Assembly: GCF_045037415.1 (NCBI RefSeq)
Contig: NZ_CP173440.1
From: Escherichia coli
GTDB taxonomy: Bacteria; Pseudomonadota; Gammaproteobacteria; Enterobacterales; Enterobacteriaceae
Strand: one strand, 5' to 3'
Length of the DNA stretch: 64,000 bases
This document shows positions 45,001-54,000 of the stretch, piece after piece. The number at the start of each line of letters is the position of its first letter. Position 1 is the stretch's first letter. Made by a program: the position numbers.

Positions 45001-48000
45001 CAGATTCATGCTTTTACCACCGTACTGACGATATCGAATTGCATATCGTCGATTGTGCGGCCACCGCTTGCTTTACCGTGGGCGGTAAAGTCCCAGTGGC
45101 CGTTGTTGCGCCTCAGTGAAGCGATAATGATGCCGGTATGTGGGCCTTGTTCTGTCAGCTGATAGCGGGCAAGTTCCTTATTGGTCTGATCCACGACGCG
45201 GCAGAAGGCGTTATCCACGTCGTTGAAGGACTGTCCACGGAAGCTGTTCACAGTAAAAGCGAGGTATTCGACATTTGCCGGCAATTTTAAGAGGTTGACG
45301 TGAATGATTTCATCATCGCCATCCCCCTCACCCGTCAGGTTATCGCCGGAGTGGACGACAGAACCACAGCTGGATTTCAGTTTACGAAACCAGATGGTGT
45401 CAATTTTATTACCTGCGGCATCCAGAAGAACGCAACCTGCATCCAGGTCTATGGAATCATTGCCACCAAAAATGCTGCCAAATAATCCCTTTTTCTTAAC
45501 AGGATCCCAACCCAGTCCGAACTGAAGCTGGCTGAGAGCAGTGGATTGTTTGCTGAGTGATACTGTCTGGTTTTTACTTAAAGAAACCATATTCATTCCT
45601 TAAAAGGTATTGACCGGGTTTTTATAAAATTCATTTTCAAACAGAGTGCATCTAAATCATATCATGACAAAGTTCACCCGCAAGGTAAAAACTGGTGGGT
45701 TTCTGGAATTTACGTTTAATTACATTGGGTGGGTAGGTGATGGTTTGATATATGTTATTGTTATTAAGTGGTTTTGTGGTCTAACCGGAAAATCAAAAAC
45801 AGCGAGTGATTATCATATTATGATTGACATGGCGCAGGTCGGTTCTTAGACTCATGTATTACAAAAATCTCATCCCCTTTTCAGGCGACAATTATAAAAA
45901 ATGAAAAAGAAAATTTGGTTTATGGAAGGGCTATCTTCCCAGCGAGACATTGTCCTTGGAGTGAAATCATTTGCGGAAAAGGAAAATCAGGATATTGAAA
46001 TCTTTTCTTCTCATCGCAACGAGAGGAAAGAGATCTTGTCTGTTTCCGATTTTTCAATGATCGAACCTAACAACGAAGAAGAACGTCTTTCTTTTATTCA
46101 TTCCATTACTGACGCTCATGGTATTAATGCGATACATACTGGTCGCAACTGTAAATGGTTTGAAAGCCACCGGGAAAACATTCAACGTTCTGGTGTACAC
46201 CTGACTACCGGGTCAACGGGTACTCACTGGTTTGAATTAGCCGATGAAAAAGTTACTTTTTCCGAGTTTATGGAAAAAAATGGACTTCCGGTTGTCCCGT
46301 CGGTTCGGGTAAAAAATGTAGACGAGCTTCGTACTCTGCTGAATCATCCCCCTTTCCCTTCTGATTGCCTCTGCATTAAACCTGTTACAGGCATTTATGG
46401 CATGGGATTCTGGCGTTTTGATGACAATGTTTCCCCGGTAGCTTTTCTCAACAATCCTGATAGCCGTGTTATCCACCCATCACAATACCTGGCTGCTCAT
46501 GCCCGTATGGACTGCTTTACTCCACAAGTACTGATGCCCTATTTACCCGGACCAGAATACTCTGTGGATATGGTGGTAAGTCAAGGCACGGTCCTGGCCG
46601 CTATCGGGCGGCGTAAAGAAGGTGTGCTTCAGTATCTGGAAAATGAAGGGGAAGCGATTGAACTTGCCATCAACTGCGCCCGCCTAATGAACGCAGACGG
46701 CATGGTCAATGTACAGACTCGCCATAATGCCGAAGGCAAACCACTATTGCTGGAAATTAACATGCGGCCATCAGGTGGTATCGGTTATACGCAGCACAGT
46801 GGCGTGAATCTTCCGGGTCTGTATGCCTTCCATACACTTGGGCTGATGGATGATGATCAGGTCAGGCAGTCAGCGAAAACTGATTTTTCACCTGCAGTCG
46901 TCCGCTCTGTCACTGATGTCATACTCTATCCGGCATCATTGACCAACAGAATTTATTAATGGAGACAGATATGTCAGCAATTGATGGTAATTTCGGTTAT
47001 CAAAAGACATTATCCTGTGGGCGAATTGAGGTAAGCAGCGAGGAAACCGATTATCCTCTTACTGATCTCTTTGATATCGCCGAACGGCGGAATCCAAAAC
47101 GCGCATTTCTGTTTGTCAGTAAAGTGCTGGGTCGACATATTCCTGTCTCTCCTCTGGTCATGCGCAATGTTTATACACAGCTGGCGGAGAAGTTTCCCGG
47201 GACTCTGGACGGGCCGGTGGTATTTATCGGGATGGCTGAGACGGCTGTCGGCCTCGGGGCGGGAGTGTTTGATGAGGTGCGTAAGCATCACCCTGACTGT
47301 GTTTATCTGACATCAACCCGCCATCCGGTCGATGCTGAACTGTTGTGCGAGTTTAAAGAAGAGCACAGCCATGCCACAGACCACCTGATCTACTATCCTG
47401 TTTCTGCGGCCATGCGGCAAACCGTAGCGGAGGCACAAACATTAGTGCTCGTGGATGATGAAGCCACGACGGGGAAAACGTTCCTCAATCTTCTCGCCTC
47501 ATTACGTGCATCGGGTGCACTCCGGAAGGTACGACGGGTTATTGCTGTCACGCTGACTGACTGGAGCGGAGAAGCACTCAGTCAGAACAGCCCCCTGCCC
47601 CTACATACAGTATCGCTCATCTCCGGCAACTGGCGCTGGACACCCGAACCGGATGCCCCGGTTCCTGTCATGCCCCAGGTAAATGTGACCTCCAGAGGGA
47701 ACGTCCCGATCACAGGCAAACAATCCTGGGGGCGACTCGGGATGCAGATACCGGCGAGTGACCTGGGTCTCCAGGTTCAGGTTTCGCACGGTGAAAACAT
47801 TCTGGTACTGGGCACCGGTGAATTTGTCTGGGAGCCGTTCCTGCTGGCTGAGCGACTTGAAGCGGCAGGTGCTCAGGTCGTGTTCAGTTCGACGACCCGC
47901 TCACCGATTTCCACTGGTTATGCTATCCAGTCCGCCATTGCTTTCAGCGATAACTACGGACTGGGTATTCCAAATTATGTCTATAACGTTGCTCATCAGC

Positions 48001-51000: not shown

Positions 51001-54000
51001 TCTGAGTATTGGCCCCCGTGGAGCTTCGCTGTCAGTGGGAAAGAATGGAACGTTTGCCAACCTGGGCCTTCCCGGAACGGGACTGAGTTACCGCACCCGG
51101 ATTGACAGAACAGCACGGGAAAGAGTGAATACCAGGCATCAGGCAGATCCCGGTCTGAGGTCTGAACTGGAGCTGGTGGTGGAAAAACTGATGTCCACCG
51201 TAACAGCGATAACCAATATCCATGAACTCTCCCCTTCCCCAAAGGGAGGGAATACCTGGGCCACGCTCGAGACACAGTACCTGGCGCTCCGTCAGGGCAG
51301 TTTCACTCTTCCTGCGCCGGTACGACCAAACAAACCTGAATATATACCTCTTCCACCAGAACCTGATGAGCATGCCGGTCGCGGTTTCCTTGGGGGATGG
51401 CTTGAATCTGATGCAGCCCGACAGGAGCGACAGAACGAAAATCTTCGGCGGTGGCAGACGTCCGTCGCTGATATTGAACGTGAAAATGCGTTGCTGAAAC
51501 AGCGTTATGAGAAACAGCGTATAGCGTGGGCTGAGCAGTACGCAGAATGGCAGCATCAGTACCAGGAGCATGAAAAAAATCGCACGGAGTCTGTAGCTTT
51601 AGCGAAAGAGCAATTCCGATCTGACGCCCGCTTCTTTGAACATTGTCTTGAGGAAGTTTTCTCGCAAACAGAATGGCCGCGAGAAACACTGGTGTCGTTT
51701 GAGGTACGGCCTGAAGAATCAACAGTCTGGCTTGATGTTGATTTACCTGAGATTGAGGATATGCCTGATAAAGTGTATAGCGTGAATGCCCGGGGAACTG
51801 ATATCAATGAAAAAGCCATGACACAGAAAGCGGTCCGGGAAAGTTACGCTAAACACGTTCACGGATGCCTGCTGAGATTAGCAGCAATCGTTTTTCAGAC
51901 GCTTCCGTTTGAACAGGCCGTCATTTCAGGCTTCACTCAGCGGGTGAGTAAACGCACTGGATATCTTGAAGATGAGTACATTATCTCCTGGCGGGTACGC
52001 CGCTCTGAAATCGAGCTAATCAACTTCGGGAATCTGCGAGGCGTTGACCCTATTGAAGCATTGGGTGATCGAGGTCTGATCAGGAAAATGAGTTCAACTT
52101 ACATTTTTCAGCCTATAGAACCACTGACCCAGATGGCAGGTACCGACTGAATATGCAATTAAACACCAGACAGGAAAGAGTTTACACCCTGGCTAACATA
52201 CTTGGCTCAGGGAAGCCTGTATCGGCGCAATCCATCACCGCGACGCTGGCCTGTTCTGAGCCGACACTAAGCCGGGCGCTTAAAGAGCTGAGGGAAACTT
52301 ACGCTGCTGAAATTAAATACAGTAAGGCTGGCCACTCCTATCAGATGGTACACTCCGGGTTACTGGATAAGAAAACACTAAAGAGAATGAGTGAGGCACT
52401 GGACCTTAATTCTGATTTAAAAACACATGACCAGGGGGCACGGGTGGTACTGGATAAGGATATAAAAACTTCCGTTTCCCTGTCGATAAGACGCCGTGTT
52501 CTTCGCAAAATTGACAAACTGGCTGCGCTAAGCGGTACATCAAGAAGCGAGGCAGTAGAAAAATTAGTAGAGTTAAAAATTGATGAAATTATCAATGAAA
52601 TGAAGAAATAGCAGAATATTAGTGGGGTGGTTGTTCTCACTCCACTAATCGGCAATCTTTACCATTTTCCCAACAGGTGTTTATTGTATAACTACAGATA
52701 AAAAGCAAATTAATAAAATAAAGATTCTTAATTCATAAATAATCCCTGTGTTTTATTTTATTAGTTTTCTTTTAACTGACCATCGTCGCCGTATTATTAA
52801 ATGCAAAAACGTTAAACCATATTTTATATAGATTATGACCTGTCCAGTTTCCCGGCGACGGGTTATCAATATGGCGAATGCCTACTAATAATGGCGGGGA
52901 TCGTATTGTTGAAATATTGAAAATTTGTAATGTTGCTCAACCAACTCGCGCGTTTGAAACAACGTGAAAATCTCACTTTGTGATTGCTGAACTAACTATA
53001 TGGCTTTTTTTTAGTAGTATGATATGAAGTGTTTATAAAACCATGTTCAGGAAATGAGCTCCCCCATCAACCATTAAGGAAAGTTTAAGATGAGAAGACT
53101 TCCCGTCTATCTGCTTCTCGATACATCAGGTTCAATGCACGGAGAGCCTATAGAGGCAGTTAAAAATGGTGTCCAGACACTACTGACCACCCTGAAGCAG
53201 GATCCTTATGCACTGGAAACTGCATATGTCTCTGTCATTACTTTCGACTCTACTGCTCGTCAGGCCGTACCTCTTACAGATCTCCTCAGTTTCAATCTCC
53301 CCTCTTTTTCGGCAAGCGGAACTACCGCTCTGGGCGAAGCCTTATCCCTGACTGCAAACCGAATTGATGCAGAAGTTCAGAAAACGACAGCGGAGACAAA
53401 AGGCGACTGGCGTCCACTCGTTTTCCTGATGACGGATGGTGGCCCTACGGATGACTGGCGTAAAGGACTTAATGAATTCAAAGCAGCCAAAAAAGGGGTA
53501 GTTGTCGCATGTGCTGCCGGGCATGATGCAGATACGGATGTGCTTAAGGAGATCACCGAGATTGTTCTCCAGCTGGACACTGCCGACAGCTCTTCCATCA
53601 AAGCTTTTTTCAAATGGGTGTCTGCCAGTGTTTCCGTAGGTAGCCAGAAAGTCGATGCCGGTAAAAAAGAAGTTATCGGTCTTGATGATTTGCCTCCACC
53701 GCCGCCAGAAGTAAACGTGGTTTTATAAGCAATTAACTTAAGAGAGGATCCTATGACTGTCAGCTTACGGAAAGGGCAAGGCGTCAGCCTGCGTAAAAAT
53801 GAGTTCGATCTTTCCTCAGTCACGATAGGTCTTGGCTGGGACATCAATGAAGAGAAAAAAGGGTTCCTGGGCGGAATTTTTGGCAAAAAAGAGGAGGAGT
53901 ATGACCTCGATGTTATTGCCTTTCTCTGCAACGCAGCCGGTAAAGTGACTGATCTTGGCAATGTTGAAAATGGTAAGCCGACACTGGTTAACGGCGATAT

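What the first reader, a model, noticed from the sequence alone, without database searches (positions are those of the whole stretch)
45901..52611. ter-associated biosynthetic operon with an extra DUF4236-like coiled-coil gene before terW
Divergent from terZ lies an operon with overlapping or abutting starts: ATP-grasp, PRTase, HAD phosphatase, a second PRTase-like or Cys-rich enzyme, an HpcH/HpaI-like TIM-barrel enzyme, a 407-aa DUF4236-like protein and terW. The enzyme set matches the ter-linked module predicted in comparative-genomics work to make a nucleoside-like metabolite; it is still biochemically uncharacterised. The DUF4236-like protein is not part of the core module as I remember it.
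Basis: partly seen in the sequence, partly recalled or inferred. Interest (0 to 1): 0.45.

Follow-up and report, generated by a model that had tools for sequence, protein, structure and literature searches.

The report
Known ter operon; DUF4236 gene ancestral
This is the well-known seven-gene operon beside the tellurite-resistance genes on Klebsiella plasmids, and its unexplained DUF4236 gene is not an extra but an old, published member of the locus that most chromosomal copies have since lost.

Summary
Seven tightly packed genes at 45901-52611 (+) run divergently from terZABCDEF. The 7.3 kb is 100% identical to hundreds of Klebsiella pneumoniae IncFIB/IncHI1B plasmids. Profile searches confirm the enzyme calls: ATPgrasp_Ter, PRTase_2+TRSP, HAD-IIB phosphatase, StiP+PELOTA, C-C_Bond_Lyase, a DUF4236 protein and TerW.

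An orthologue sits in the same slot in IncHI2 (R478-type) plasmids and in the E. coli O157:H7 island. It accompanies about 99% of plasmid-borne ter modules. It is already listed in a published Klebsiella ter-locus table.

The gene is not universal, however. Of 80 species-level loci, mostly Enterobacterales, only 6 keep it intact. Several others keep collinear remnants, so it is ancestral and was lost more than once. More distant homologues keep their linkage to TerD genes despite rearranged gene order. The protein is under purifying selection. Its C-terminal domain has no solved structural relative, and its function is unknown.

The pathway is not wholly uncharacterised. The HAD enzyme is homologous to crystallised P. 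aeruginosa extrachromosomal trehalose-6-phosphate phosphatases. Two conserved palindromes, one overlapping the operon's -35 box, fit TerW autoregulation.

Verdict: a known locus with modest new detail.

The parts
45656..45668 (.). Conserved near-palindrome ATCATATCATGAC; putative TerW operator 1, on the terZ-proximal side of the divergent spacer.
   Evidence: Conserved at the same relative position in 13 of 14 aligned ter intergenic regions that are otherwise unalignable. Matches the description of putative TerW sites in PMC7843439. Binding was not tested here.
45812..45824 (.). Perfect 13-bp palindrome ATCATATTATGAT; putative TerW operator 2, abutting and overlapping the -35 box of the operon promoter.
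   Evidence: Conserved in all 14 loci aligned (0-1 mismatch). Only three matches with 2 or fewer mismatches occur in the whole 64-kb window, and two of them are in this spacer.
45824..45852 (+). Sigma-70-like promoter TTGACA-17-TAGACT for the seven-gene operon.
   Evidence: Best consensus match in the region, 10 of 12. Both hexamers are conserved across Enterobacterales loci. Inferred; no transcript data.
45901..46959 (+). o1: ATP-grasp ligase of the ter-linked type, 352 aa.
   Evidence: Pfam ATPgrasp_Ter PF15632, 7.4e-38. GC about 0.40-0.46, lower than the rest of the operon. Not detected in 22 of the 80 related loci, with only a short fragment in 2 more.
46971..48113 (+). o2: phosphoribosyltransferase with a C-terminal TRSP domain, 380 aa. 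An alternative ATG lies at 46959.
   Evidence: PRTase_2 PF15609, 4.5e-61, and TRSP PF12500, 2.5e-23. RefSeq start with GGAG upstream.
48106..48879 (+). o3: HAD-IIB-type sugar-phosphate phosphatase, 257 aa.
   Evidence: DxDxT motif. NCBIfam HAD-IIB/MPGP, 1.3e-7. PDB 6D3V/6D3W/6CJ0 'trehalose phosphatase', E = 3e-48 over the full length. 41% identical to the ter-locus HAD of a P. aeruginosa megaplasmid.
48881..49960 (+). o4: StiP domain (PRTase-like according to the literature) plus a PELOTA RNA-binding-type domain, 359 aa.
   Evidence: StiP PF11202, 1.5e-88, and PELOTA_1 PF15608, 1.6e-26. No solved homologue by sequence.
49960..50916 (+). o5: TIM-barrel C-C bond lyase (CitE/HpcH-like), 318 aa.
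   Evidence: C-C_Bond_Lyase PF15617, 1.3e-107. Weak RipC/Ccl hit.
50927..52150 (+). o6: 407-aa protein. It has a basic N-terminal DUF4236 beta module (residues 3-56), a helical and Pro-rich middle with a 58-residue helix (162-219), and a conserved acidic C-terminal alpha/beta domain (about 232-400) with WPRET, DVDLPEIED, HVHG and TQR motifs. Function unknown.
52153..52611 (+). o7: terW, a 152-aa DNA-binding regulator (N-terminal winged-HTH-like plus C-terminal ribbon-helix-helix).
   Evidence: 68% identical to the IncHI2 gene that AMRFinder calls terW at 100%. RHH_1 0.0046 and HTH_11 0.05.
39711..45596 (-). Divergent terZABCDEF operon. Context, not part of the finding.
   Evidence: Annotation of the identical plasmid NZ_CP040726.1.

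Best explanation
The region is the standard 'biosynthetic' arm of the enterobacterial ter locus, here on a Klebsiella pneumoniae IncFIB/IncHI1B plasmid.

Regulation (inferred). One sigma-70 promoter (TTGACA-17-TAGACT, 45824-45852) drives seven translationally coupled genes. The last gene, TerW, probably feeds back on the operon and on the divergent terZ operon through two conserved palindromes. One of them overlaps the -35 box.

Enzymes (inferred from family membership). The set most likely builds a ribosylated small molecule:
- a PRTase (o2, possibly also the PRTase-like StiP o4) joins a base-like acceptor to PRPP;
- the HAD-IIB phosphatase (o3) removes the 5'-phosphate, as its relatives do for phospho-glycosides;
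- the ATP-grasp ligase (o1) and the TIM-barrel C-C lyase (o5) decorate or supply the aglycone.

The DUF4236 protein (o6). It is an ancestral but dispensable member of the locus. It is retained on the mobile versions: Klebsiella plasmids, IncHI2, the E. coli O157 island and Pseudomonas megaplasmids. It has been deleted or has decayed in most chromosomal versions.

Its most likely role is non-enzymatic. I read it as a soluble adaptor or regulator working with the TerD-family proteins, not as a step in the pathway. Two observations point that way. The enzymes persist without it. It also occurs with TerD genes alone.
For: Shown:
- Identity with known plasmids and their annotation.
- Ter-specific Pfam families for five of the genes.
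- The HAD gene is homologous to crystallised trehalose phosphatases. That enzyme was used as an active T6P phosphatase (PMC6838324).
- o6 sits in the same slot in IncHI2 and O157 loci.
- Plasmid counts are 2486 for o6 against 2510 for the C-C lyase.
- o6 is listed in a published locus table.
- Among 80 species-level loci, o6 is intact in 6, shortened in frame in 1 and a pseudogene in 1.
- Collinear remnants lie in the lyase-terW gap of at least 7 more loci (L016, L020, L026, L044, L066, L073, L088).
- HMM hits in those gaps number 26 on the forward strand against 1 on the reverse strand.
- o6 identity falls in step with lyase identity: 74/85, 64/77 and 50/62%. dN/dS is 0.12.
- Linkage to ter genes survives rearrangement. 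Marinomonas has the same order. One metagenome locus reads TerD-TerD-Na/Ca exchanger-o6-PRTase. Another has the lyase followed by o6. Psychromonas has TerD-TerD-o6-TerD with no enzymes. In a Pseudomonas megaplasmid o6 lies beside terE and terF.
- The palindromes and promoter hexamers are conserved in 13-14 of 14 spacers. They agree with published TerW footprint reasoning.

Inferred: the chemistry of the pathway, TerW autoregulation, and the adaptor role of o6.
Against: - No experiment here or in the literature I could read shows the product of the pathway or any activity of o6.
- The only enzymology on a module member (the HAD orthologue) points to a disaccharide phosphate, not a nucleotide. 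The 'nucleoside-like' product may therefore be wrong, or the activity may be promiscuous.
- The o6 C-domain has an invariant acidic/His/Arg constellation (D272, E275, E277, D278, H312, Q338, R339) that could equally be a catalytic site.
- The roughly 450-aa branch of the family is not ter-linked (Truepera, Thiohalocapsa and one other locus), nor is one 407-aa member. The family therefore has a function that does not need Ter proteins.
- The plasmid counts are dominated by three or four clonal lineages.
- I could not read Anantharaman et al. 2012.
Confidence: 0.6

Rival explanations
1. o6 is an enzyme of the pathway, or a hydrolase or nuclease effector. Its catalytic site would be the conserved DxDLPExED / HxHG / TQR residues of the C-terminal domain.
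For: Invariant acidic, His and Arg residues cluster in a confidently folded alpha/beta domain. The gene is tightly coupled between the lyase and terW.
Confidence: 0.15
2. o6 is a divalent-metal (Ca2+, Mn2+ or Zn2+) sensing or buffering protein. Its C-domain would work like the cytoplasmic regulatory domain of cation-diffusion-facilitator transporters, tuning the TerC/TerD metal system.
Confidence: 0.15
3. o6 is a selfish or phage-derived passenger with no role in Ter function. It would be retained on mobile elements only because those lineages are young.
For: The N-terminal DUF4236 module matches nine phage protein families. The gene has been lost repeatedly without loss of the rest of the locus.
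Against: Purifying selection is as strong as on the neighbouring enzymes (dN/dS 0.12). The gene co-diverges with the locus from Klebsiella to Shewanella, Aeromonadaceae and Marinomonas. Linkage to ter genes survives reshuffled gene orders. The C-domain is absent from 50,697 phage records.
Confidence: 0.1

Closest known systems
ter locus of IncHI2 plasmid R478 / pKUSR18 type and the E. coli O157:H7 tellurite-resistance island
   Same: Identical gene order: terZABCDEF divergent from ATP-grasp, PRTase, HAD, StiP, C-C lyase, DUF4236, terW, then terY/X/Y, TerY-C, PP2C and kinase.
   Different: Sequence only. 65-73% aa identity for o5, o6 and terW; DNA identity is below the megablast range for most of the region.
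Klebsiella pneumoniae pK2044 ter locus (Vornhagen et al. 2021, PMC8115787)
   Same: The same locus. The published S1 Table lists every gene, including 'Hypothetical protein (DUF4236) KP1_p257' at 98.9% frequency.
   Different: None of substance. That paper assigns no function to the DUF4236 gene and tested only terC and terZ-F.
Ter-linked biosynthetic module predicted to make a nucleoside-like metabolite (Anantharaman, Iyer and Aravind 2012)
   Same: All five enzyme families named for that module are present.
   Different: I could not read the paper, so I cannot say whether it includes the DUF4236 protein. My survey shows the ATP-grasp gene and o6 are both variable members.
P. aeruginosa extrachromosomal trehalose-6-phosphate phosphatase (PDB 6D3V, 6D3W, 6CJ0)
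   Same: o3 aligns over its full length at E = 3e-48, with the catalytic DxDxT conserved. The Pseudomonas gene sits in the equivalent ter-linked operon.
   Different: 41% identity. The substrate of the Klebsiella enzyme was not tested, and T6P may not be the physiological substrate in either case.
Chromosomal ter loci of Yersinia pestis, Proteus mirabilis, Pectobacterium versatile and Xenorhabdus
   Same: terZABCDE, PRTase, StiP, lyase, terW and the operator palindromes.
   Different: No o6: the lyase-terW gap is 113-415 bp, in some cases with remnants. Xenorhabdus and P. mirabilis also lack the ATP-grasp gene. In Pectobacterium the operon is described as five genes, with terW transcribed separately.

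Membership tests
Ter-linked biosynthetic module | ATP-grasp of the ATPgrasp_Ter family | tested here: met
   PF15632, 7.4e-38
Ter-linked biosynthetic module | PRTase_2 fused to TRSP | tested here: met
   PF15609, 4.5e-61, and PF12500, 2.5e-23
Ter-linked biosynthetic module | StiP/PRTase-like domain with PELOTA domain | tested here: met
   PF11202, 1.5e-88, and PF15608, 1.6e-26
Ter-linked biosynthetic module | TIM-barrel C-C bond lyase | tested here: met
   PF15617, 1.3e-107
Ter-linked biosynthetic module | HAD phosphatase | tested here: met
   DxDxT motif; TIGR01486, 1.3e-7; PDB trehalose phosphatase, 3e-48
Ter-linked biosynthetic module | Adjacency to terZABCDE / TerD-family genes | tested here: met
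   Divergent terZ 304 bp upstream
Ter-linked biosynthetic module | Produces a nucleoside-like metabolite | not testable with these tools
   Needs metabolomics or enzymology
DUF4236 (PF14020) | About 55-residue N-terminal Gly/Arg-rich beta module | tested here: met
   1.8e-19 over residues 3-56, covering the full model
TerW regulator | Orthology to characterised terW of E. coli/IncHI2 | tested here: met
   68% identity over 149 aa to the gene that AMRFinder calls terW at 100%
TerW regulator | Binds the terZ promoter region | not testable with these tools
   Conserved palindromes found; binding itself needs EMSA
Trehalose-6-phosphate phosphatase (HAD-IIB) | Full-length homology and catalytic motif I | tested here: met
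Trehalose-6-phosphate phosphatase (HAD-IIB) | Specificity for trehalose-6-phosphate | not testable with these tools
   Only the Pseudomonas homologue was assayed (PMC6838324)
Known anti-phage defence systems (PADLOC) | Any component model matching o1-o6 | tested here: not met
   0 families for o1-o6; only a weak WYL/HTH hit for TerW
PD-(D/E)xK nuclease (considered for the o6 C-domain) | Fold match to a restriction-endonuclease-like core | tested here: not met
CDF-transporter cytoplasmic metal-binding domain (considered for the o6 C-domain) | Fold match with convincing score | tested here: inconclusive

The most novel reading that the evidence does not exclude
The o6 protein could define a large uncharacterised family: about 2,300 clusters at 50% identity, with a C-terminal domain that has no solved relative. 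Its ter-linked branch could be the missing coupling factor between the TerD/TerC metal-handling complex and the small molecule made by the neighbouring enzymes. Retention only on mobile ter loci might then explain why plasmid- and island-borne ter clusters give extra phenotypes (phage and colicin resistance, gut fitness) that chromosomal ones may lack.
Probability: 0.12. Interest if true: 0.6.

Novelty: already known. Interest (0 to 1): 0.28.

Why it matters
The ter locus is common in hypervirulent and multidrug-resistant Klebsiella, in EHEC and on IncHI2 plasmids. It has been linked to infection and gut fitness, yet its biochemistry is unsolved.

Knowing that the DUF4236 gene is an ancestral, selectively maintained but dispensable member gives a clean natural experiment: loci with and without it can be compared.

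The link between the HAD enzyme and a crystallised, assayable phosphatase gives a practical way into the pathway's chemistry. Neither point changes the classification of this region as a known locus.

Tried and rejected
- Anantharaman et al. 2012 and Cross et al. 2018 could not be read. What those papers say about DUF4236 and about TPP kinetics is therefore not cited.
- A profile search of o6 against PDB sequences gave nothing significant.
- tblastn of the C-domain against phages found no match. The phage-protein idea now rests only on the N-terminal module.
- PADLOC gave no hits for o1-o6, or for the downstream terY/terX/TerY-C/PP2C/kinase genes. I therefore do not file the neighbours under the TerY-P defence system that I recalled from memory.
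- Rfam found no RNA family in 39-60 kb.
- No intrinsic terminator follows terW. There is only a 12-bp stem-loop without a T-run.
- No third TerW-like palindrome was found upstream of terY1 in this window.
- Three further context look-ups landed on contigs too short to be informative.
- The 67-aa ORF in the divergent spacer overlaps the operators and the promoter, and lies in sequence that is otherwise unalignable between loci. I treat it as spurious.
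Full report
**What is there**

Window 45901-52611 carries seven co-directional ORFs on the + strand. They lie divergent from terZ (45006-45596, -), across a 304-bp AT-rich spacer.

The 7.3 kb around them is 100% identical to hundreds of Klebsiella pneumoniae plasmids; 631 records are at least 99% identical and 1065 cover at least 80% of the query. One example is the IncFIB/IncHI1B plasmid pKpvST147B_virulence. Its RefSeq annotation gives the same seven genes, followed by terY/terX/VWA, TerY-C, PP2C and kinase genes.

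Gene junctions overlap or abut. Two starts are better placed at 46971 and 48881, where GGAG precedes an ATG.

**Are the enzyme calls right?**

Yes.

| Gene | Pfam match | E-value |
|---|---|---|
| o1 | ATPgrasp_Ter | 7e-38 |
| o2 | PRTase_2 + TRSP | 4.5e-61, 2.5e-23 |
| o4 | StiP + PELOTA_1 | 1.5e-88, 1.6e-26 |
| o5 | C-C_Bond_Lyase | 1.3e-107 |
| o6 | DUF4236, residues 3-56 only | 1.8e-19 |
| o7 | weak HTH + RHH_1 | 0.05, 0.0046 |

- o7 is 68% identical to the IncHI2 gene that AMRFinder calls terW.
- o3 has no Pfam hit. It carries the HAD motif I (FSDLDDTLF) and a weak HAD-IIB hit.
- o3 also aligns over its full length with PDB 6D3V/6D3W/6CJ0, 'trehalose phosphatase', at E = 3e-48.
- Those crystal structures are of the P. 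aeruginosa 'extra-chromosomal' TPP. A later paper used that enzyme as an active trehalose-6-phosphate phosphatase (PMC6838324).
- The equivalent gene sits in the ter-linked operon of a P. aeruginosa megaplasmid and is 41% identical to o3.
- So one enzyme of this 'uncharacterised' module has a solved, assayed homologue.

**Is the DUF4236 gene extra?**

- A 64.7%-identical orthologue lies between the lyase and terW on IncHI2 (R478-type) plasmids.
- The IncHI2-type operon, including this gene, is found at 698 chromosomal places in E. coli, including O157:H7, O111 and O103 strains.
- In the plasmid collection the lyase is present at 80% coverage or more in 2510 records, and o6 in 2486.
- Per-genus counts almost coincide: Klebsiella 1052/1058, Escherichia 441/441, Enterobacter 364/364, Salmonella 350/350, Pseudomonas 130/128.
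- Vornhagen et al. 2021 already list 'Hypothetical protein (DUF4236), KP1_p257' in 98.9% of Klebsiella ter plasmids.

**Is it universal?**

No. I fetched 80 species-level loci with a lyase alignment. The best matches were nearly all Enterobacterales, plus Shewanella, Aeromonadaceae, Photobacterium and one Neisseriaceae. I then scored every ter gene in them by tblastn.

- o6 is intact in six: K. grimontii, Buttiauxella, Escherichia sp. ESNIH1, Rahnella ecdela, Shewanella glacialipiscicola and an Aeromonadaceae MAG.
- It is shortened in frame in Lelliottia and disrupted in a Citrobacter.
- In the rest, including Y. pestis, Proteus, Morganella, Serratia, Pectobacterium and Xenorhabdus, the lyase is followed by terW after only 18-527 bp.
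- A Pectobacterium study independently describes that operon as five genes, with terW controlled separately.

**Loss, not gain**

- The short gaps still hold pieces of o6 in the right order and on the right strand.
  - Brenneria keeps three collinear fragments (N-terminal, middle, C-terminal).
  - Y. nurmii keeps about 110 C-terminal residues.
  - Rouxiella, Prodigiosinella, Silvania and two Xenorhabdus keep shorter pieces (tblastn E from 1e-3 to 1e-12 against a 23-kb database).
- An HMM of the family hits the gap translations 26 times on the forward strand and once on the reverse strand.
- Where o6 is present, its identity to the window's copy falls in step with that of the lyase: 74/85, 64/77, 50/62 and 46/57%.
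- dN/dS against K. grimontii is 0.12, against 0.07-0.12 for the enzymes.
- The gene is therefore ancestral to this operon in Gammaproteobacteria, is under purifying selection where it is kept, and has been lost several times.

**What keeps company with it further away?**

Homologues of 30-49% identity remain ter-linked in different arrangements.

- Marinomonas fungiae has the same order as here.
- A metagenomic locus reads TerD, TerD, Na/Ca exchanger, o6, PRTase, HAD, StiP, HAD, TerB, VWA x3, PP2C, kinase.
- Another has terZABCDE divergent from PRTase, HAD, StiP, lyase, o6.
- Psychromonas ingrahamii has TerD, TerD, o6, TerD and no enzymes.
- The P. aeruginosa megaplasmid has o6 beside terE and the terF-like VWA gene.
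- A longer branch of about 450 aa, in Truepera, Thiohalocapsa and one other, has no ter neighbours. One 407-aa member also has none.
- The constant partner is a TerD-family protein rather than any one enzyme. This is why I favour an accessory role with the TerD proteins over a catalytic step.

**The protein itself**

- AlphaFold2 with 45 homologues gives a confident model, pLDDT 86.8.
- It shows a six-stranded N-terminal beta module (DUF4236, net charge +7), then helices and a Pro-rich linker, then a 58-residue helix (162-219).
- The C-terminal alpha/beta domain has net charge -8 and pLDDT 90.5 when folded alone.
- No transmembrane segment is predicted.
- The C-domain carries invariant W250-P-R-E-T, D272-L-P-E-x-E-D, Y307, H312-G and Q338-R339.
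- A profile of the C-domain finds 2302 clusters among 1.84 billion representatives. Among the 150 best, the domain always lies at the C-terminus, mostly of 390-460-aa proteins.
- It is absent from 50,697 phage records.
- PADLOC, NCBIfam and Pfam give nothing beyond residues 3-56.

**Regulation**

The terZ-o1 spacer is unalignable between genera except for four elements:

- AATCATATCATGA(C/T), at window 45656-45668;
- the perfect palindrome ATCATATTATGAT, at 45812-45824;
- the adjoining TTGACA (-35, 45824-45829);
- TAGACT (-10, 45847-45852).

Their positions match the two putative TerW sites described for Pectobacterium and E. coli. Because terW is the last gene of the operon here, negative autoregulation is the simplest reading. 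This is inferred, not shown.

**Verdict**

- The 'extra gene' idea is wrong for R478, O157 and Klebsiella. It is right only in the sense that the gene is an accessory that most chromosomal loci have lost.
- The locus and its gene content are already published.
  - the ancestral-then-lost history of the DUF4236 gene;
  - its persistent linkage to TerD genes;
  - the lack of any solved relative for its C-domain;
  - the link between the HAD gene and a crystallised phosphatase.
- Interest is modest.

Noticed in passing
window 48106-48879: The HAD gene of the operon is a full-length homologue (E = 3e-48) of the crystallised P. aeruginosa extrachromosomal trehalose-6-phosphate phosphatases (PDB 6D3V, 6D3W, 6CJ0). 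Their gene lies in the equivalent ter-linked operon of Pseudomonas megaplasmids. None of the ter-locus papers I could read mentions this connection.
   Followed up: partly
window 45901-46959, and loci L053-L089: The ATP-grasp gene has clearly lower GC (about 0.40-0.46) than the rest of the operon (0.51-0.57). It is not detected in 22 of 80 related loci, with only a short fragment in 2 more. The loci without it include Xenorhabdus, Proteus mirabilis and Serratia rubidaea. Like o6, it is a variable member.
   Followed up: partly
window 45646-45849 (+): A 67-aa GTG-initiated ORF fills the terZ-o1 spacer and probably corresponds to the 'hypothetical protein KP1_p264' of the published locus table. 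It overlaps both conserved palindromes and the promoter, and the surrounding sequence is not conserved. It looks spurious.
   Followed up: partly
window 53090-58907 and beyond: Downstream of terW lie terY1, terX, a second VWA gene, TerY-C, a PP2C phosphatase and a kinase. From memory this resembles the TerY-P defence triad, but PADLOC gave no hit at E of 1e-5 or better for any of them. This block is present in only a subset of the 80 related loci.
   Followed up: partly
window 52618-52649: A 12-bp-arm stem-loop (ATTAGTGGGGTG...CACTCCACTAAT) lies 7 nt after the terW stop, with no T-run after it. A 22-nt AT-rich inverted repeat follows at 52701-52773. Their function is unknown.
   Followed up: no
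L092 11263-12438: In one metagenomic ter locus the gene after o6 is a 391-aa Card1_endonuc (CARF-type) protein, in the slot that terW occupies here.
   Followed up: no
L004 9052-12977 (Psychromonas ingrahamii 37): A minimal cluster of TerD, TerD, o6 homologue, TerD, without TerC, TerB or any biosynthetic gene. It sits in a region that also holds an integrase and GmrSD-type and SNase nuclease genes.
   Followed up: no
L013 10968-11900 (Lelliottia sp. WAP21): An in-frame 310-aa version of o6 lacks about 97 residues of the helical and Pro-rich middle but keeps the DUF4236 module and the C-domain. This natural deletion may show which parts are needed.
   Followed up: no
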